Assembly (NCBI RefSeq): GCF_009914755.1
Contig: NC_060934.1
DNA from: the human T2T-CHM13v2.0 reference genome, Homo sapiens
DNA: 64,000 bases
Strand: one strand, 5' to 3'
In this document: positions 51,367 to 63,268 of the stretch, in pieces
How positions within the stretch are numbered: position 1 is the first letter of the stretch
How the letters are laid out: each line of letters opens with the position of its first letter
Notes under the pieces: model-generated
The model's input: only the letters and a program-made list of their open reading frames with translations
Databases searched by the model: none
What the model was told of the DNA's origin: nothing
Program-made: the position numbers and the translations under genes

Positions 51367-54300
51367 TCAAAAAAAAAAAAAAAAAAGAGAGAGAGAGAAA
51401 AAAAGAAAAAGAAAAAAAGACATAAAAACTAAATTGATATATATATGTTCATTGCAGTATTACTTATAACAAAAATCTGGAAATAAATTCCAAAAAATAG
51501 GCTGGGCATGGTGGCTCACACCTGTAATCCCAGCACTTTGGGAGGCTGAGGCAGGTGGATCACAAGGTCAGGAGTTTGAGACCACCCTGGCCAAAATGGT
51601 GAAACCTTGTTTCTACTAAAAATACAAAAAATTAGCTGGGAGTGGTGGCACACGTCTGTAATCCCAGCTACTCAGGAGGCTGAGACAGGAGAATCGCTTG
51701 AATCCAGGAGGCAGAGGCTAGGGTGAGTGGAGATCGCGCCATGCACTCCAGCTTGGGTGACAGAGCAAGGCTCCATCTCAAAAAAAAAAAAAAATCCAAA
51801 AAATAGAATACTTAAATAAATTTTGGTACATCTAAATGATGAAATGTTAATTATATTCCTAAATATTCCCAATATTCCTAAAACTTTAAAACATGGGAAA
51901 ATGCTAAATTATTATCGGGGGAAAAAAGTTGAGATACAAGAACACATTCCCAGTTTGTAATCAGAAACATATATGAATATAGAAAAGGTCTCAGGTGACA
52001 ATACTATTTACCTATGCATGATGGCATTATAGTTTTTACTTTCCTATGTATTAGTAATTCTCTACCAAGAACATGTAATACTTTTATAATAGAAAACAAT
52101 TATGAAAAACTAAAAATATGTTATTTCAGAATAGTATAACACCTAGCAAAGGAATAAAATGAGGCAAAACTTAGATATGAATAAAAAAGTAATTAATATA
52201 TTTTCAAATAATTTGTGAAAAGCCCATTCTAAAGGATTCCAGAATGTCTTATGGCCAAGAAAGGCTAAACCAAAATTCTGCCATGCTAGAAATGAACACA
52301 AAAGAGTAAATCTAGGCAAATAAAACTTATGGTTTAAAGAATAAGCCACCGAAATGCAAGAAATTTCCCATTAAAACAAAAACAAACAAACTCTAATAAG
52401 GCCTGGCGTGGTGGTTCATGCCTATAATCCCAGCACTTTGGGAGTCTGAGGTGCGAGGATCACTTCGAGACCAGCTTGGGCAAAAGAGTGGAACCCTGTC
52501 TCTATAAAAAATACAAAAATATGCTGGGCATGGTGGCATGCACATGTGGTCCCAGCTACTCAGCAGGCTGAGATAAGAGGATTCCTGAACCCAGGGAAGT
52601 CGAGGCTGCATTGAGCCACGATTTAACCACTGTACTCCAGTGACAACAAGATCCTGTCTAAAAAAACAAAACAAAACTCCAATAAAATGTCTGTATAATT
52701 ACACACAGCATAGGTTTTTCTCGCATATAAGGTAATTATCATAACTCATTACAATTTAAAATTAATTATTGCCTTTTAAATTTCATCAAAATGAAAAAAA
52801 AAAATCCAGGGGAACAGAAAGAAGGTCAACCATGAGCTCATTAATATAGTTTCCTCATTAGTGTTACCCATTTTTCTACTAACATTATCCAAGCCCAAAT
52901 AAACTCTTATATAAACATTTGAGTACACCTCCTCTATTAGATTCTTTCATACATATCCCAAGCACTTGATATACTTTATAGCCTAGGAATACAGAAGTAA
53001 CTTTTGTGTCTTCAAAGCAGTTTTAAAAATACATGCCTTTGTGAGAAATGAGCTTTAAAAACAGTGCTACATTTGTATGATATATTGGGAATACAGAACC
53101 TAAGAATCTTTACTAAGGAGATAATGGTAACTAGACTACCTAGACTGCCATCTGCAACAAGAATCTGCTAAGTACCCAAATTGTAAAACCAAATCTACCA
53201 CACTGCTGATCTTTTAAGGAAAGTATGTGGCTCACTTCTAATCATGTAAAAACACTAACATACCCAAGAGAAAATCACTGGTTCCAAGTACTTTGAAGAA
53301 GTTTCCCTTTGTTAGACTGCTCAGATTAGGCATCTACTGCTATTTTTGTCTTCTGTGTAGGTTTTAAGAGTTTTATAAAGCATCCACCAAACCAATGCAT
53401 CTTAGAGAGAGATGCATGTATCTACATGGCGGACTTTATACAACATAACTAATCCAAGTTCCAAGGTTAGCCACCAAATCAATTCTGCAAGTCAGTTACT
53501 ATGGACCTTGGCTTGTAGTACAGCATAGCAGTTAGACAAGGGGATATATACAATATATAACAGAAAAGAGAAAAGACTGGGCATTACCATAGTTAAGTTT
53601 CTGTTCGTTTGTTCAAATATTCTTCATACCACACAGAGTTATACTGAAGTATCAAAGTGGTATCAGAATGTAAGCATCTTGGTAAAATAATGATTTAACA
53701 GGCCATCAAATCGAATGGCAGGGAAACAATCTGTGCACTAGTATTTGACCTGCCTCAAACAGAAGATATTACTGTAAATAATTCTAAACATAAGCACAAT
53801 TTAGTGAATAAGGTAGGAGACTGGTAGACTCTAACTTTCAGATTCAACTTATAGCTGTTCACCAGTCATCTGCTATTTTGACAAGTTACTTACCAACGTG
53901 TGCTGCCATTTCTCCGTAAATTTATCCCCTAAGATGAGGATAATTCTTGCAAATTGTGTCACAAGCATTTTGAAAGGAACCATGAGTTATTGTGTAATGC
54001 TCTTGAAATTCCTCAGATGTAGGGTCCTACACAAAGTAAAGTATTATTATACATTTCTCTAACAGTAGTCATCTGTTTGCATTATGATTTTTTTTCCTAC
54101 CCTTGACACTGTGATTCTTGGGCACTAACCTTTCTCAAAGTAAAGCGTTCAAAGCAAGCCTCCACTCCTGACCCAAGTAATTACTTTTTTCAAATCTATC
54201 ATCCACATCTTTCTCTTCCTTAGAAGGTATTGTGAAAACCGGGAGTTATAAAACGCAATGAGCTTCTTTGGTTTAAATGTTCTGGTTCAGTAAGAAATGT

Positions 54301-54514
54301 GTGGGATAATCTGGTATTTTTATTTTTAACCCACCCTTAAGTGAGTAACTTTATTTCCCATAGTTATATTTTCCTATATTACTTTTTAAATTTCAACTAT
54401 ATTTTAAGGAGCAGCTCGTTTATAAATTTGTTTTATGAACAGAGAGAACAGGTCAGAAAAATGAAGAAGCAAGAAAGGCAAGCCAAGTAATCACTACTAT
54501 GTGACCAAAATGCT

Positions 54515-54520
54515 TTTATT
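54515..54520 (-). terminator. Candidate intronic poly(A) signal AATAAA
   Basis: AATAAA on the minus strand followed ~30-75 nt downstream by a U/pyrimidine-rich tract (54485-54440); other AATAAA at 56910-56905 and 55837-55832. Confidence 0.35.
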
Positions 54521-54827
54521 GGAATGACTCAACAGTAGAAATTACCATTCGAGGATATGGAAAACAAAGAATCAATGCTCATCATCTTTAAAAAGAGTTC
54601 AACATAAACCACAATAAATTTTATCATACTATTAAAACTATTACCTATAAACTCTGCCAATCGAGTTAGTCTTCCATTCAGTAATACACTATACATATTT
54701 GAATTTTTTAGCTTTTGTTGGTACAATATTACATCTTGAAAATAGAACTCTCGATCTTCTTATCAGTTCTTAAAATGATTTTTAAGTTTGTGTACAAGGG
54801 GGAAGACAATAAAATATGCTGTCTTCA

Positions 54828-55493
<666 letters not shown>

Positions 55494-55629
55494 TCAGAAT
55501 TACAATAAAATACTGATGGAAACCAGCTTCCTCAAAGGTGAACAAATATTCTTTTACCTTCTAAATGTAGCAAAGGAAAAGATTTGTGAGATTAAGGATA
55601 AAAACCACAAGATTTAGGGTGGTCTCAAG

Positions 55630-55780
55630 ATGTGCTAGCCAAGTGACCCTATTAGTCTCTTAATCTCTTTTAACCTCAGTGTCCTCATCTGTAAAATGCG
55701 GACCATGATACCTGCCTTAGCTACATACAACTGTTGTGAGAATTAAATGAGATACTCCATTTGAAAGAATGTTGTAAAAC
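55630..55780 (+). mobile_element. MIR
   Basis: cctcagtgtcctcatctgtaaaatg...gttgtgagaattaaatgaga core. Other MIR-like pieces at ~42290-42400, 45290-45600, 46840-46980 and 53810-54050. Confidence 0.8.
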
Positions 55781-56662
55781 ACAAAAAACTGTTTTTTAGA
55801 TAACAGGGCTTGTTTTTAAACAGAACACCACTTTATTTACAAATTATGGTCACAGAACAGTTTAGTACTGTTTCTAACATGAAACAAATGGAAATCAATG
55901 TGCAAAACATAACCATGGTCACCAAATTATACCTATGATTAGATACACAGTAAGAAAAGGATCTTGTAAAGAAAAGTATACTTCCCATACTTAAAATCTT
56001 CAGAACTGAATTTGAAAGTATAAAAAAACAACAATTCATTTAAATGGATTGGTCTAGCGCACTGAAGATTAAATATATTTGTTAGCTATAAATTTAAAAA
56101 TTGAGACATTAGCTTAAAAAGTATTTTAAAGTTCTTATGAAGAAAAAAACATGAAAGTGAAACAGACATTCACTTCTCTGGAAATAATTCAGAAAAGCCA
56201 GTAGTGATAGAAAAGGACATACATATACAAGACAACAGAGATGAACATGAACATAATCTGCACCTTTAGTATAATAAAGGAATTCAGTTAAATCTTTCTG
56301 TGTGGTCCCTAAAAAGTCCAGAACAGAAACACCTCTTTTCAATAGGCCACAGGTTAAATCTATTCACTACATTGTCAGGCCAAGTCCTCCAGTAGGTTAT
56401 TATGAATCTCGAGAATAATTTATCCTTAATAAGGCTACCTCTTTCTCTTTCATTCCTTATTAGTTATGGAATATGTATATTTATAAAGCCAACCTATGTA
56501 AAGAAACAATTCTTAGTTCCCTCCATTCCATGTGCTTTCTGACACAAGTTTAAAGTTCTTGTGAAGTCAGCTGGGCACGGTGGCTCACGCCTGTAATCCC
56601 AGCACTCTGGGAGGCCAAGGCGGGCAGATCACAAGGTCAGGATATCAAGACCATCCTGGCTA

Positions 56663-56939
<277 letters not shown>

Positions 56940-57116
56940 TCAATTACCAGAAGACTTTAAAATAAATAAGATCCAACAACTTTTTATCTTTTAATCCAGT
57001 CCTCAAATTCACAAATTTAAAAAGGGGTTGGGGAAATGACACAAATCATTAACGAATTATTCCAAATATAAATAACTTTAGTTAAAAACATTCTTAAAAT
57101 TTAGTTAAAAACATTA

Positions 57117-57488
<372 letters not shown>

Positions 57489-59690
57489 CTATCACAGCAA
57501 CTACTACTTTTTGAACTTGTTTCTCTTCCCTCTGAAACCTAGGTTCACTTCAATATATCATCGAACCAGAACTTCTGATAATAAAAAGCTTTTCTCAGGA
57601 TCAGGACCCCCCCCTTCTACAAAACTATTTCAGCTCCAGACTTATTTCCTAGCTGTTTATGTGATCACCAATAGAATTAAATGTAAGCCTTCATTTTCTC
57701 CCAGAAATCTTACTTTAATTCTATCCCATAATATTTCCCATCATTTAAATGTCCTAGGCTCAAAGTGCATGGCACATCATGTCTAATTTCCAGTTCTCTC
57801 CAGTTGTTCATGTATACCTTAACTCCCAACCCAGACTCTAAATTTCTCAAGACAAAGCTAATGCCTGTCACTTTTCTCTTCCACAGGCTGTGGTGTAATC
57901 GGGACAACAATGAGGCAATCCTAAAGAGGTATCCCAAATTAGGGAAACCCACTGCCCCAACTTTACATTACCAAATAATGGTTCCAGGATGAATCAAGAT
58001 GATATAGATGTCACAGTGCAATCATCACAATGTCAACATGACCACAAAGAAGCCTATTCTAGCTAGTTAAGTTTCTCAGAATCTCATCTATACAGTTGGA
58101 GGCTGTTCCTGGCACTATAATCATTATACTACTAGTACACAGTGTCTACCTCTAACACTTAAACATTTTAAACCTCAGTAGACCTAAGTAACTATACTGG
58201 CAATTTCTATGTGCTGGCTTTTTACTTTCTACTTGCCCTATGGCCTTTCAGAAATTATTAAAGTAATACAGAGAGATGTTCAGTTATTTCTATGGGGCAT
58301 GCTAAAGTACAAAGAACAGCAGTAGCCTCCGTACCATGAAAATCTCAACCTGAGGCAGCATTCCAAGCTAAGCAAAAATAGTAAAGGGCCCATTTGTCTC
58401 TGGAGCAGAGACAATCATCAAATGCGTATCAGTAAATTACCATTCATTTCTACCAATATGACCACCTCAATGCCTGAGATCATGAAAATCTGGTAGGAAT
58501 CCATAAAATGTTCTTAGACAGGTAGAGTACAAGAAAGCTGCCATTTACTTTGAGTTCTGCAAGAATTAAAAATCTATTTTATGAATGTCACTATCATTTA
58601 TCCAATAAAAAATAAATTACAAATTAAGGCAGAAGAAAATACACTAAGACCTTAACCACAAAGAAAGGATGAAAACGATACAGTATTTGCAAGTTAGAAA
58701 AGTGAGATTTGGCATGGTCGTGAGATGATGTGAAGGATGAATCGTGCCTTAATTTAATGCCTGAATATCTTAGATTACATTAATCTCTCAAAAGCTGAGT
58801 AACAACAGAAACCACCTAATTAATAAACTGATAAAATAACTGCCACAGAAAATACTGAAGTGCCATTATTGTTACAGTTAAAATAAACAGTAAGTCAGTA
58901 TAGCTGCAGTCTCATCTGAATTTACCACCTGAAATCATTAACTTTTAGTTATCATAATTGAAAGCAAAACTCACATAACAATGATACTCCTAAATGTAGA
59001 AATATTTGATTTTAAAATACAATATCCAGGAACAGAACATGAAATGTGACCAAATTCCTCAAAATTCTCATTACCCTACAAATTATTTAATTTGCTTGTA
59101 CAACTACTACAAAATCAGGACACTTCATAGTCACAAAATCTTTAATAGCTAGCAATGCTACAGAAAGTAGAAGATGAGAGGAATAAAAGATATTTCTAAC
59201 TAAATCAAATAAAATTACATATTTAAAATACTATGACAGAGGGATAAAAAGAATAAAAATATATTTTAGGCAAGCAAGTCAAAGTAAAAAGCTTCCGTCT
59301 TGTTTTCCTCCCCCCTCCCAAAGTAAGGTAAACACAGAGTAAATTATGCATTTAAAATCTATCCAGGGTGGCTGAACAGAATTTATTAAAGAGGACCTGC
59401 ACACTACACACTCTGTACCAAAGATTTATATACTGCAGGCTGATTTTCTTTATTGTTTTATATCGTCATACAAAATAAGGTTTTATAATACTAGTAGTAA
59501 AAAAAAAGAAACCACAACATAAAGTACTTAGAACCATACAAATATACACATATAATGGAAATACATAACTTCTACTTTGCTTTTAAAGCTTGATAAACAT
59601 ATAGTTACAACTAGAGAAATTATACGATGATTCAAATTTAAAATGATATAATTATTAAAAATAGCAAATTTTAAAAACATTTCAACTTAC

Positions 59691-59916
59691 CTGGTTTCTT
59701 TCTGGATTTTTCATGACCTAGCTGTCCTAGATCATTACATCCACATGTGTACACTGTTCCATCATCCAGAACAAACACAGTATGTCTGAGTCCACATCCT
59801 ACATCTCGGACCCTTTTATTTATAAAGAAGTCACTTTTTCTGGGCTCTAGTACAATTTCTTCATCAATTCCACCCAAACCTAGCTGCCCAAAGGATGCAT
59901 TTCCCCAGCACAACAT
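59691..59916 (-). CDS. HERC4: HERC4 first coding exon (exon spans 59691-59994 incl. 78 nt 5'UTR), aa 1-75 MLCWGNASFGQLGLGG...EKSRKKP
   Basis: ATG at 59916-59914; RCC1-repeat motifs (WGxxxxGQLG, VGCGLRHTV); acceptor ttctttctatttcctcAG at 59996-59995; donor CAG|GTAAGT at 59690; 226 coding nt, phase 1. Protein recognised as the HERC4 N-terminus. Confidence 0.97.
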
Positions 59917-60464
59917 GCTTGTAATTATTTTGGTCTTCCAGTTTCAATAAAAAATTCTCTTCTGAAACCCCGGAAAGTTGGAGGTACCCTATGTCTGAGG
60001 AAATAGAAAGAAGTTAATATGACTTCAAAGAAAAAAGGATGTATAATTGCTCTTTCAAGTGCTAGGCTACAATAATTGCTACATGGTAAACATTAAATAT
60101 ACTTTATAACATGCTACATAAGTATCATTCAGTTTCAAAAACCAATCAGTTGTATTTTTTAAAATGTATCATACAGAAATTTTTAGGGAAAATATGACAC
60201 TTTCTATGATCCTTTGCAAAATTTAAAACATATTAACTAGTTTTGACTTCTGGTTATCTTGTGATAGACTAAACTAATAGGAATAAGTACCTTGATGAAA
60301 TTAATCACAATTTTTTCTACTTTTTGCTTTAAATAATTTCAATGGGAACAAGAAATAAGACATCTTTCCTCTGCCCAAAAAGCAAATATACACAGTGAAA
60401 AATTTAGCCAACTGCAGAAACATAACCTTGCAATCCTAGTATAATTAAGCTTTCTAATACCTAC

Positions 60465-60494
60465 CTCCACATCAACAGAAAATGGAGTTCTTAT
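60465..60494 (-). other. HERC4: Candidate 30-nt 5'UTR microexon of HERC4 (exon 2)
   Basis: Acceptor ggttttatttctgttacAG (60496-60495), donor GAG|GTAGGT (60464); second donor TAG|GTATTA 4 nt further (60460). Confidence 0.65.
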
Positions 60495-61299
60495 CTGTAA
60501 CAGAAATAAAACCAATAATGGAAATTTAAAGCAATTTTCCACAATTTAAACGACTCTCCCAATTACTCTTTAGCCCAGAGAGAAAATGAAGATTCTCTTA
60601 CCAAACCATAATCTTAAATCACCTCCAAAGATCCCAGATTTCAAATCAAAATACTAACATTCCAACCTCACTAATTTTAAAACTAAATCAATGTGCATAA
60701 TTATAATACAGAAAAAAAAACATGCAATTTAAATATCAATTCTCTCCAAAATTCAACCTCTTTTATTACAAGTGGTAACCGGGATTAAAAAAATCACCCG
60801 TGGGCAATCTATATCTATCTATATCTCTGAGACAATTATTTAAAGATTGGCGGGGGGGAATTGCAAATAACTCCAGCACTGCAGATTTTTCAAGAATAGG
60901 AATGGATAGTCTGATGGCGAAATCTGTAGAACTTTCCAGCACACTGACTGAATATTTCCTCACTTGTAAAGAAAGACACAAATAACAGAGTCCACTTCAT
61001 CTATACATACGTAGACTTTTAAACACATCGCGTTACTAAATATCATAATTACAGGAAGTCAGCCTTATTCTGTAGCAGTCATCCACATTCTTACAGAGCC
61101 TGCGAAGTTTCAACTCCAATTTTCCTATGTTCCTGTTAGCAAGTGCCCAAGGTGTCCCATTCCACGACCCATCATCCCATTAACAGAAGTTTGATTTCAT
61201 TCTTTTGGGGTATCAGAACTCGATAATTCCCAAGAGTTCTGCATTGTCTTCCCATATTTAAAAACAAAATAAGAGTAATACAGGAAAATACCCCGACTT

Positions 61300-62340
61300 C
61301 AGCGCGCGAGGTTTAACCACCCTTTTCTTTAAAACACAGAGGCGTCCTCTCGCCAGCAACAGGTAGGGAAATGAGAAGCAGTTTAGTCCCGTCTTTCCCT
61401 GAACGTGCACCCAGATCAGCTCATGGGGACTGGGAAAGAGAAATCATCTGCACACACCCAACCTCGCAGCCAAGCAGACGACTACCGCAACCGGCCGCTC
61501 GCAACGGCTTCAGAGGCCGGCGGCCGAGGCTTGGCAGTGCGCGGCCTCAACCTGAGAGAAGCCCATCCCCAGGCAGATGAGACATTCCAGCCCCGGGGCC
61601 AGGGAGCCACAGCCCTGCCCTCGCCCCACGCCCCTCACCCCCAGGAAGCGCGGAGAAAGCGCCCTATGCCGGGCCGGCCTGCATCCGCCCAGCCCGGCCT
61701 GCCCCTCCCTAACGCCGTCACACGCCCCCGAACCCGCTGGGGCCACAACTCGCCCAAGCCCTTCAGGGTAGGGGAAGCCCAAGGTGACGGGGGGCGGCCC
61801 CTGCCCAGAGAGCAAGGCAGCGCGGTCGCTGAAGCACGTCTCCGGCTCCTGGGACCCTCCTCTGTCAGCCAGTGGCGACGATCACCAGGGCACCTCCGGC
61901 GTCTGTGCCGCTGCTCCGCTGCTCCCCTCCCCGGCCCCTGGGAAACTTTACCGGGTTCCTTAGAGAAAAGCGGACGCCACTGCTGTCCAGTCCAGAGACA
62001 GCCGTCAGCGACCCGGATGGAGCGGGCGGGGAAGAACGGGAGGCAAGCGGGGCGGAGAGCACCAGGGGTGGGGAGAGTTGGGGAAGAGACTGGGTAGGAG
62101 AAGGCAGAGGGGGAGGTGGCCACGCGAGGGAGGCGGGGGAGGGGCTGGCCGGAAGTGAACCGCAGAGCACGCGCGCGAGCCCGCCCACTTCCCGGCCCCG
62201 GCACCGGCGCCTGCGCCGAATCTTCCGGGGGGGGGGGGGGGGGGGGGGTGCCTGGCCACAGGCGCCTGCGCAGTGTGCCGCTTTGCGTTGCTTTAAGAGG
62301 GAAAAGCCAAATACAGAAAGTTGGAGTTTGCGAAGACAAA
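61300..62340. promoter_or_regulatory. CpG island / TATA-less HERC4 promoter
   Basis: Very GC- and CpG-rich against AT-rich flanks; ETS/GABP CCGGAAGTG 62149-62157; GC boxes (e.g. CCCGCCC 62180-62186); NRF1-like GCGCCTGCGC at 62207-62216 and 62262-62271; G22 run 62227-62248. Confidence 0.9.
61952..62100 (-). other. HERC4: HERC4 non-coding exon 1 (5' boundary approximate)
   Basis: Within the CpG island, downstream of ETS/GC-box motifs; donor CCG|GTAAAG at 61951; no ATG in this segment. TSS not determinable from sequence. Confidence 0.7.
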
Positions 62341-62905
62341 CGAAGAAGATGTCAACTGTTTTTGAGAATGCTTCGGCGTGCACAAAGCCTTTTAATGAAG
62401 CAAATCACTTTGTTTTTTGGTTTGGTTGTCTTTGTGCTCATGGATGCTAGCTAGTCTTTTTATTATTTTACTCTCTCTTTTCCCAAGGAGATTTTAAAGT
62501 AGCAGATGAAACATCACAATTATGAACATAAAGACTGGTGAAGAGTTATTTTATCCCATGGCCTCAACTGGAGCCAGTCTGAGGATGTGAGATGTGTTGA
62601 TGGCAATGGCTGAAGCTACTCTACTACCACCACCACCAGTTCAGTTTCCTTGTACAGTGTTGGCTACCATCACTTTCTACACTCTCCCTGAAAGATAGGC
62701 TTGAATTGCAGGGTCTCATTCTATCAGAGAAAATTACACATTGGCTGCAGTCCCTGATTCATAAAAACGAAGTCTGGATCTCCTAGGCCAGCCTTAACTT
62801 CTTAAAAAGCAGGAGAACTTGAAACAATGCACTTTTGAAATTGTAAGTTGGGTATTGCTAGAATGAATATTCAGTACCTAGAAGAAGTTCCACAAATAGG
62901 CCATC

Positions 62906-63268
<363 letters not shown>

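What the first reader, a model, noticed from the sequence alone, without database searches (positions are those of the whole stretch)
59925..60494. 5'UTR microexon acting as a uORF on/off and length switch for HERC4 translation
Seen: exon 1 (up to ~62100) and the 78-nt UTR of the ATG exon contain no AUG, but the candidate 30-nt microexon (60494-60465) carries one at 60472-60470. Spliced at GAG|GTAGGT it opens a 25-codon uORF, MWRHRVPPTFRGFRREFFIETGRPK*, whose TAA (59927-59925) ends only 8 nt before the HERC4 AUG. Spliced at the tandem donor 4 nt further (TAG|GTATTA, 34-nt exon) it becomes ATG TGG AGG TAG (MWR*), ending 78 nt upstream. Skipping removes the uAUG. Established: long uORFs with short intercistronic gaps repress reinitiation, while very short uORFs with longer gaps permit it. 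Inference: three splice states give three translational outputs of the same protein. The uAUG context is weak (ttgATGt), so the effect may be partial. An RBFOX-type TGCATG lies upstream at 60726-60721.
Basis: partly seen in the sequence, partly recalled or inferred. Interest (0 to 1): 0.8.

Follow-up and report, generated by a model that had tools for sequence, protein, structure and literature searches.

The report
Known weak uORF in HERC4 leader
The 30-base exon is the ordinary second exon of the main HERC4 messenger RNA, and the short upstream reading frame it opens is already listed as translated, so it is probably a mild constant brake on HERC4 translation, not a three-way splicing switch.

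Summary
Exon 2 (60494-60465, minus strand) holds the only AUG of the canonical 5' leader. Spliced at GAG|GTAGGT, it opens the 25-codon uORF MWRHRVPPTFRGFRREFFIETGRPK*, which ends 8 nt before the HERC4 AUG.

Neither part is new. The exon is exon 2 of the selected RefSeq mRNA NM_015601.4 (hub table). The uORF is GENCODE Ribo-seq ORF c10riboseqorf51, found in Table S1 of Sandmann et al. 2023. That table gives it as ORF structure old within primates and colugos, no peptide-level constraint, and 0 mass-spectrometry studies.

The three-state switch is not supported.
- The "+4 tandem donor" is the GT at +5/+6 of a good donor consensus. It occurs in 4 of 9 selected-transcript donors in this window.
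- It pairs far worse with U1 than the annotated donor, -5.6 against -12.3 kcal/mol.
- Only 1.17% of human UTR GYNNGY donors are alternatively spliced.
- The TGCATG is at chance level.
- I found nothing in print on skipping of exon 2.

Most likely the uORF is a constitutive, weak-context (-3U/+4U), modestly repressive uORF bypassed by leaky scanning. Interest is low.

The parts
61952..62091 (-). HERC4 exon 1 of NM_015601.4. GC-rich 5' leader with no ATG; also none up to 62156.
   Evidence: Hub table.
60465..60494 (-). HERC4 exon 2, a 30-nt 5'UTR exon with acceptor ...TTTCTGTTACAG|ATAAG. It is annotated in the selected transcript.
   Evidence: Hub table. The region is single-copy in the genome.
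60470..60472 (-). The uAUG, start of the uORF, in a weak context (-3 U, +4 U).
   Evidence: Noderer 2014 passages describe -3U without +4G as the classically least efficient context.
60455..60464 (-). Intron 2 donor GTAGGTATTA. The annotated cut is GAG|GTAGGT. The GT at 60460-60459 is the proposed +4 site (TAG|GTATTA).
   Evidence: In one search the U1 duplex is -12.3 kcal/mol with 7 of 9 consensus matches for the annotated site, against -5.6 kcal/mol and 5 of 9 for the +4 site.
59925..59994 (-). Exon-3 part of the uORF (70 nt), with TAA at 59927-59925.
   Evidence: It matches the 8-nt + 70-nt exon structure of c10riboseqorf51.
59914..59916 (-). HERC4 main AUG (context acaagcATGtt, -3 A), 8 nt after the uORF stop. 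An in-frame TGA lies 30 nt upstream.
   Evidence: hub table (coding part 59691-59916).
60721..60726 (-). TGCATG hexamer, 226 nt upstream of the exon 2 acceptor, at chance level.
61292..61937 (-). Alternative annotated first exons (5' ends 61935-61937, donors at 61458 or 61292). They add 3 or 5 further uATGs to the leader.
   Evidence: Hub table.

Best explanation
Exon 2 is a small, strongly defined 5'UTR exon of the main HERC4 mRNA. It carries one weak-context uAUG.

**What is shown**
- The sequence anatomy.
- The annotation of the exon.
- The catalogue entry for the uORF.

**What is inferred**
- Most scanning 43S complexes leak past the uAUG and start at the HERC4 AUG, which has a -3 A.
- A minority start at the uAUG, translate 25 codons and terminate 8 nt before the HERC4 AUG.
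- Those ribosomes are largely lost to HERC4 synthesis. The intercistronic gap is too short to re-acquire ternary complex, and the terminating ribosome covers the main AUG.
- Termination far upstream of exon junctions may also expose some mRNAs to nonsense-mediated decay.
- The net effect is a modest, constitutive dampening of HERC4 output, not a regulated switch.
- The +4 GT is the +5/+6 GT of the donor consensus and is rarely, if ever, used.
For: - The anatomy is verified.
- The exon is in the selected transcript (hub table).
- Its donor is the strongest U1 match of the 15 annotated exon 3' ends scored in the window, at -12.3 kcal/mol; the next is exon 3 at -12.1. It also has a good polypyrimidine tract and AG.
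- The uORF is c10riboseqorf51, biotype uORF, in Table S1 of Sandmann 2023. Its exon pieces are 8 nt + 70 nt, matching the 60465>59994 junction.
- That table gives PhyloCSF -53.74 (primates) and -379.88 (mammals) and 0 MS studies. The act of translation, not the peptide, is therefore the plausible effector.
- The context is -3U/+4U, classically the leakiest.
- Chew 2016 passages: uORFs are generally modestly repressive, more so with a better start context and a shorter distance to the CDS.
- There is no stabilising structure downstream of the uAUG: -7.5 kcal/mol against -11.7 +/- 2.6 for shuffles.
- Against the +4 donor: GT at +5/+6 in 4 of 9 selected-transcript donors; U1 duplex -5.6 against -12.3 kcal/mol; 175 of 14,977 (1.17%) human UTR GYNNGY donors are alternatively spliced; regulated ones have sites of similar strength, and a first GT is preferred.
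Against: - No quantitative data were available here. I had no junction counts, no P-site counts and no reporter data.
- The size of the repression is therefore inferred, and it could be nil.
- Exon-2 skipping could be common in some tissues without my being able to see it.
- The hub table hides 2 of the 14 alternative exons, so an annotated 34-nt form cannot be fully excluded.
- The +4 site keeps an AG|GTA core. It is the best of the 6 +4 sites scored in this window, and its U1 energy (-5.6) equals that of the used exon 1 donor (-5.5). Low-level use is therefore possible.
- ORF-structure conservation to the ancestor of primates and colugos is compatible with some selection on the uAUG.
Confidence: 0.68

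Rival explanations
1. Two-state cassette switch. Exon 2 is skipped in some tissues or conditions, which removes the only uAUG and raises HERC4 translation. This is how the uORF-bearing alternative 5'UTR exons of RBMXL1, ADIPOR1 or DLG1 work.
For: - Skipping yields a 218-nt leader with no uAUG.
- Very short exons are often alternative (recalled).
- The kind is well documented: review PMC13631847, section 4.1 and passages.
- That review also reports that uORFs are enriched in alternative parts of 5'UTRs (Resch 2009, cited).
Against: - The exon has strong splice sites and is in the selected transcript (hub table).
- The searches HERC4+uORF, HERC4+microexon, HERC4+'upstream open reading' and HERC4+'translation efficiency' found nothing on this exon.
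- The published HERC4 cassette events are a coding neural microexon and exon 24, not exon 2.
- The weak uAUG context limits the dynamic range.
Confidence: 0.13
2. Three-state switch. Skipping, the 30-nt form and the 34-nt form together give three translational outputs.
For: The reading frames are as stated. The +4 site has an AG|GTA core and a U1 pairing energy like that of the used exon 1 donor.
Against: - GT at +5/+6 is part of the donor consensus: 4 of 9 selected-transcript donors in the window have it.
- There is a 6.7 kcal/mol gap in U1 pairing between the two sites.
- 1.17% of UTR GYNNGY donors are alternatively spliced. Most of that is described as noise, and regulated ones have two similar sites.
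- No 60461-60494 exon appears among the 12 listed alternative exons (hub table).
- With a weak uAUG, the difference between the MWR* form and the skipped form would be very small.
Confidence: 0.03
3. Neutral by-product. The uAUG is a young, unselected feature whose low-level translation has no measurable effect on HERC4 output.
For: - 54% of shuffles of the 30-nt exon contain an ATG.
- The context is the weakest class.
- The table lists the ORF as 'primatomorpha - young', mode of evolution 'unknown', with negative PhyloCSF and 0 MS studies.
Against: - Translation was detected well enough to enter the catalogue.
- The 8-nt gap makes each uORF translation event costly for the main ORF (rule recalled; genome-wide trend).
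- Translated young ORFs show higher ATG conservation than untranslated controls, 63.3% against 35.8%.
Confidence: 0.14
4. The 25-residue peptide itself is a functional microprotein.
For: It is translated according to the catalogue. It is basic and arginine-rich, and Sandmann 2023 passages report arginine-rich uORF peptides of 3-15 aa that bind the translation machinery.
Against: PhyloCSF is strongly negative and 0 MS studies are listed. No main text names the ORF or the peptide.
Confidence: 0.02

Closest known systems
GENCODE Ribo-seq ORF c10riboseqorf51 (HERC4 uORF), as listed in Table S1 of Sandmann et al. 2023, Mol Cell (PMC10032668)
   Same: It is identical. The peptide is MWRHRVPPTFRGFRREFFIETGRPK*, the gene and strand match, and the two-exon structure of 8 nt + 70 nt equals 60472-60465 + 59994-59925.
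   Different: Nothing differs in sequence. The catalogue entry says nothing about splicing states or about an effect on HERC4 translation.
uORF-bearing alternative 5'UTR exons (RBMXL1, ADIPOR1; also DLG1, ELK1, STN1 intron retention, TRIB3), as reviewed in PMC13631847
   Same: An exon inside the 5'UTR creates a uORF that should lower main-ORF translation.
   Different: In those cases alternative inclusion and a translational effect were shown experimentally. Here alternative use of the exon is not shown, and the uAUG context is weak.
Alternatively spliced GYNNGY (delta-4) tandem 5' splice sites (Wang et al. 2014, NAR, PMC4267661)
   Same: The motif GTAGGT is a GYNNGY, and it lies in a UTR, where such alternative splicing is about twice as frequent as in CDS.
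   Different: Regulated members have two sites of similar strength. Here they differ by 6.7 kcal/mol of U1 pairing and by 7 against 5 of 9 consensus matches. No use of the second site is documented.
Neural SRRM3/SRRM4-dependent microexons, including HERC4's own coding microexon
   Same: The exon is small, 30 nt, at the upper edge of common microexon definitions (recalled).
   Different: - The known HERC4 neural microexon alters the protein between the RCC1 and HECT regions. This exon is non-coding.
- The only TGC in the last 40 nt of the upstream intron is at -39 to -37.
- No RBFOX site lies in the proximal downstream intron; an AGCATG sits about 350 nt downstream.

Membership tests
Translated uORF (GENCODE Ribo-seq ORF class 'uORF') | An AUG in the 5'UTR of an annotated mRNA, with an in-frame stop before the CDS start. 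| tested here: met
   ATG at 60472-60470, TAA at 59927-59925, 8 nt before the main ATG. The exon is in NM_015601.4 (hub table).
Translated uORF (GENCODE Ribo-seq ORF class 'uORF') | Ribosome-profiling evidence of translation. | tested here: met
   By literature only. It is listed as c10riboseqorf51 in Table S1 of PMC10032668. The raw Ribo-seq data were not seen. That the 'riboseqorf' name means replication in more than one data set is recalled, not checked.
uORF-switching alternative 5'UTR cassette exon | The exon is alternatively included and skipped in real transcripts. | not testable with these tools
   No junction data were available. The hub table cannot show skipping. The literature searches found no report for exon 2.
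uORF-switching alternative 5'UTR cassette exon | Inclusion creates a uORF that is absent from the skipped form. | tested here: met
   the skipped form has no uATG.
uORF-switching alternative 5'UTR cassette exon | The isoforms differ in translational output, and the difference depends on the uAUG. | not tested
   This needs reporters or isoform-resolved polysome or Ribo-seq data.
Alternatively spliced GYNNGY tandem donor | A GYNNGY motif at the 5' splice site. | tested here: met
   GTAGGT at 60464-60459. The motif is also present in 4 of 9 selected-transcript donors in the window.
Alternatively spliced GYNNGY tandem donor | Both GY dinucleotides are used in transcripts. | not testable with these tools
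   There is no 60461-60494 exon among the 12 of 14 alternative exons shown by the hub. The supplementary site lists of PMC4267661 and PMC8055015 were not seen.
Alternatively spliced GYNNGY tandem donor (regulated subclass) | The two sites are of similar strength. | tested here: not met
   -12.3 against -5.6 kcal/mol U1 duplex, and 7 against 5 of 9 consensus matches.
Neural (SRRM4/SRRM3/RBFOX) microexon | A very short exon (3-27 or up to 30 nt), usually coding and frame-preserving. | tested here: inconclusive
   The exon is 30 nt and divisible by 3, but non-coding. The size limits are recalled.
Neural (SRRM4/SRRM3/RBFOX) microexon | UGC-containing enhancer close to the 3' splice site, and/or GCAUG in the proximal downstream intron. 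| tested here: not met
   - The only TGC in the last 40 intronic nt is at -39 to -37.
- TGCATG lies 226 nt upstream and is at chance level.
- No GCATG lies within about 300 nt downstream of the donor.
- The definition of the motif positions is recalled.

The most novel reading that the evidence does not exclude
Exon 2 inclusion is regulated by tissue, stress or transcription start site. Because the uORF stop sits 8 nt before the HERC4 AUG, a terminating uORF ribosome and an initiating ribosome on the main AUG exclude each other. Inclusion would then tune both HERC4 translation and mRNA stability, and low-level use of the +4 donor would relieve that effect.
Probability: 0.08. Interest if true: 0.4.

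Novelty: already known. Interest (0 to 1): 0.12.

Why it matters
HERC4 is a HECT E3 ubiquitin ligase, so a real switch on its translation would be of some interest to people studying its targets. What is actually present is an annotated leader exon and a catalogued, young, weak-context uORF. Thousands of human genes have such uORFs. The useful outcome is negative. The apparent tandem donor and the RBFOX motif are expected by-products of the consensus and of base composition. The only open question is an ordinary one, how often exon 2 is skipped, and public junction counts would settle it.

Tried and rejected
- **EJC lead.** An EJC-dependent HERC4 cassette event validated by RT-PCR might have been exon 2. 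A later paper from that line names it as exon 24 skipping, so I rejected the lead. HERC4 was not found in the main text of PMC4268817.
- **HERC4 'microexon' papers.** The PanNET preprint concerns a coding, brain-specific microexon. In Blazquez 2018, HERC4 appears only in the reference list.
- **Processed pseudogene or repeat origin.** Searching the window's own genome with exon 3 and with 301 nt around exon 2 found only the locus itself. There is therefore no retrocopy that could record the splice pattern, and no sign of a multi-copy repeat.
- **RNA structure.** Minimum-free-energy folds of the three leaders are nearly the same per nucleotide (-0.271, -0.274 and -0.277 kcal/mol/nt). No hairpin follows the uAUG.
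- **Rfam scan of 59000-63000.** There was one match, to IS009, at 19.8 bits against a gathering score of 117 and E = 0.12, which is chance.
- **Conservation in other mammals.** No vertebrate genome other than the window's own is held, so I relied on the published table.
- **Text search for the ORF.** Searching for the ORF id or the peptide found 0 papers.

Full report
**1. The observation**

I read the region on the minus strand and rebuilt the mRNA forms from window coordinates.

- Exon 1 (62091-61952, 140 nt) has no ATG. Its longest annotated form, up to 62156, has none either.
- Exon 2 is 60494-60465 (30 nt). Its acceptor is ...TTTCTGTTACAG|ATAAG and its donor is GAG|GTAGGTATTA.
- It has a single ATG at 60472-60470, in the context ctgttgATGtg.
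- Joined to exon 3 at 59994, this ATG opens MWRHRVPPTFRGFRREFFIETGRPK*. The TAA is at 59927-59925, and 8 nt separate it from the HERC4 ATG at 59916-59914.
- Cutting instead at the GT 4 nt further on (60460-60459) gives a 34-nt exon and the uORF MWR*, which ends 78 nt before the main ATG.
- Skipping exon 2 gives a 218-nt leader without ATG.
- An in-frame TGA 30 nt upstream of the main ATG closes the main frame in all three forms.
- TGCATG is at 60726-60721.

**2. Is it more than chance?**

It is not.

- 9% of 10,000 shuffles of the 218-nt ATG-free leader also lack ATG.
- 54% of shuffles of the A/T/G-rich 30-nt exon contain an ATG.
- TGCATG occurs 33 times in the window on both strands, against 38.7 +/- 6.7 in dinucleotide-preserving shuffles. 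84 of 100 shuffles reach 33.
- There are 17 copies on the gene strand, so the chance of at least one within 300 nt is about 0.08. This copy sits 226 nt upstream of the acceptor.
- The 'tandem donor' is the GT at +5/+6 of the donor consensus. It is present in 4 of the 9 donors of the selected transcript in the window (those of the exons starting at 794, 20738, 59691 and 60465). It is present in 6 of 15 distinct annotated exon 3' ends; one of those 15, at 54498, is a polyadenylated end and not a donor.

**3. What it is**

The hub table shows 60465-60494 as exon 2 of the selected RefSeq mRNA NM_015601.4. It is an annotated exon, not a candidate.

The uORF is also on record. Table S1 (mmc2.xlsx) of Sandmann et al. 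2023, Mol Cell (PMC10032668) lists c10riboseqorf51. I read part 1 of that file and the matching passages. The table covers the 7,264 ORFs of the GENCODE Ribo-seq ORF catalogue. The entry reads:

- peptide MWRHRVPPTFRGFRREFFIETGRPK*, gene HERC4, minus strand;
- two exon pieces of 8 nt and 70 nt, biotype uORF;
- conservation 'primatomorpha - young', mode of evolution 'unknown';
- 0 MS studies;
- PhyloCSF -53.74 (primates) and -379.88 (mammals).

The 8 + 70 nt pieces are exactly 60472-60465 plus 59994-59925.

In that paper's methods (passages):

- 'primatomorpha' means that the start codon and at least 70% of an intact ORF are inferred for the ancestor of primates and colugos.
- 'young' means that the amino-acid sequence is not conserved in non-primate mammals.

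I recall, but did not verify, that the 'riboseqorf' names (as opposed to 'norep') mark ORFs found in more than one data set. No main text in the library names the ORF id or the peptide. Four searches pairing HERC4 with uORF, 'upstream open reading', microexon or 'translation efficiency' found nothing on this exon or uORF.

**4. The splice sites**

I scored each site against the recalled 5' end of U1 snRNA.

| Site | U1 duplex (kcal/mol) | MAG\|GTRAGT matches |
|---|---|---|
| Annotated exon 2 donor | -12.3 | 7 of 9 |
| Exon 3 donor | -12.1 | 9 of 9 |
| +4 site, TAG\|GTATTA | -5.6 | 5 of 9 |
| Exon 1 donor (used) | -5.5 | 6 of 9 |

- The annotated exon 2 donor is the strongest of the 15 annotated exon 3' ends scored in the window.
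- The +4 site lacks the +5 G.
- In fairness, the +4 site keeps an AG|GTA core. It is the best of the six +4 sites scored in the window, and its energy equals that of the used exon 1 donor. Occasional use cannot be excluded.

Wang et al. 2014 (PMC4267661, sections 13 and 16 read) give the base rate.

- Of 122,198 human GYNNGY donors, 796 (0.65%) are alternatively spliced.
- In UTRs the figure is 175 of 14,977 (1.17%).
- The authors conclude that this is mostly noise.
- Regulated cases have two sites of similar strength, and a first GT is preferred.

The HERC4 site fails the similarity criterion. No 60461-60494 exon appears among the 12 alternative exons that the hub table shows, out of 14.

**5. 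Skipping**

Nothing available here can show or exclude skipping of exon 2.

- The known HERC4 microexon is a coding, brain-type, SRRM3-dependent one.
- The EJC-dependent HERC4 event is exon 24.
- The exon region is single-copy and no HERC4 retrocopy exists in this genome.

What the annotation does show is other leader diversity.

- Alternative first exons start at 61935-61937, with donors at 61458 or 61292. They add 3 or 5 further uATGs.
- Intron-retaining forms carry 23 or 32 uATGs.

The 'three splice states' picture therefore leaves out most of the annotated leader variation.

**6. Mechanism**

What is shown is the anatomy, the annotation and the catalogue entry. The rest is inferred.

- The uAUG has -3 U and +4 U. 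Noderer et al. 2014 (passages) describe this as the classically least efficient context and the most prone to leaky scanning. The HERC4 AUG has -3 A.
- No hairpin follows the uAUG that could slow scanning: -7.5 kcal/mol against -11.7 +/- 2.6 for shuffles.
- Most 43S complexes should therefore pass the uAUG.
- Those that initiate there finish 8 nt before the main AUG.
- Reinitiation falls with short intercistronic distance and with longer uORFs (Kozak's rules, recalled). Chew et al. 2016 (passages) find genome-wide that a better start context and a shorter uORF-to-CDS distance go with greater repressiveness, and that uORFs are generally modestly repressive.
- By the usual footprint geometry (recalled), the main AUG lies 14 nt downstream of the first base of the P-site codon of a ribosome terminating on the uORF. 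It is then at the leading edge of that ribosome. Termination on the uORF and initiation on the main AUG should exclude each other.
- The uORF stop lies 234 nt upstream of the exon 3 donor. Termination there could mark the mRNA for nonsense-mediated decay (rule recalled).

I conclude that this is a modest, constitutive brake, with the act of translation and not the peptide as the effector. The negative PhyloCSF scores and 0 MS studies support the last point.

**7. Comparison with what is known**

The thing itself is c10riboseqorf51. The proposed kind of mechanism is a 5'UTR exon that brings in a uORF and lowers translation. A 2026 review (PMC13631847; section 4.1 and passages read) documents it for RBMXL1, ADIPOR1, DLG1, ELK1, STN1 and TRIB3. 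Even if exon 2 turned out to be alternative, this would be one more member of a known kind.

**8. Verdict**

The uORF is real and translated, but the switch is not supported.
- Novelty: already known.
- Interest: low.
- The most novel reading not excluded is regulated exon-2 inclusion with mutual exclusion of the terminating and initiating ribosomes. I put its probability at about 0.08.

Noticed in passing
window 62227-62248: There is an uninterrupted run of 22 G on the + strand (22 C on the HERC4 strand). It lies 71 nt upstream of the longest annotated HERC4 start (62156), inside the RefSeq 'silencer' 62099-62271 and the CpG-rich promoter (61400-62400: GC 0.67, CpG observed/expected 0.71). 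It is the only G or C homopolymer of 12 or more in the window and is probably length-polymorphic.
   Followed up: partly
window 54498-57407 (minus strand): This annotated alternative exon looks like an intronic-polyadenylation terminal exon.
- It has AATAAA about 20 nt before its end, and no donor-like sequence follows it.
- Its acceptor and first bases look like an antisense Alu (a T-run, then GAGACAG|AGT...; family recalled).
- Joined to exon 3 it would give a 110-aa protein, 75 HERC4 residues plus a 35-residue Alu-derived tail.
- A paper reports a HERC4 intronic-polyadenylation isoform increased by cisplatin (PMC12548281, one passage). I could not tell whether it is this exon.
   Followed up: partly
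window 53894-54026 (minus strand): This annotated alternative 133-nt exon is not a multiple of 3. Inserted after exon 3, it brings a stop at residue 79, so it looks like a poison exon.
   Followed up: partly
window 61292-61937 (minus strand): Alternative first exons start 15-17 nt downstream of the exon 1 donor. They carry 3 (short form) or 5 (long form) uATGs, two of them in purine -3 contexts (gggcggATGca, gctggaATGtc). These leaders should be more repressive than the canonical one.
   Followed up: partly
window 61991-61989 (CTG in exon 1, minus strand): A CTG in a good context (tctggaCTGga: -3 G, +4 G) opens a 24-codon frame through exon 2. It ends at a TAG at 59991-59989 in exon 3. Without exon 2 it would be 10 codons shorter, because 30 nt keeps the frame. 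It is a possible near-cognate uORF; no evidence was sought.
   Followed up: no
HERC4 exon 24 and the coding neural microexon (outside the window): Published HERC4 splicing events are EJC-dependent skipping of exon 24 and an SRRM3-dependent, brain-type coding microexon that is highly included in pancreatic neuroendocrine tumours. Neither concerns the 5' leader.
   Followed up: yes
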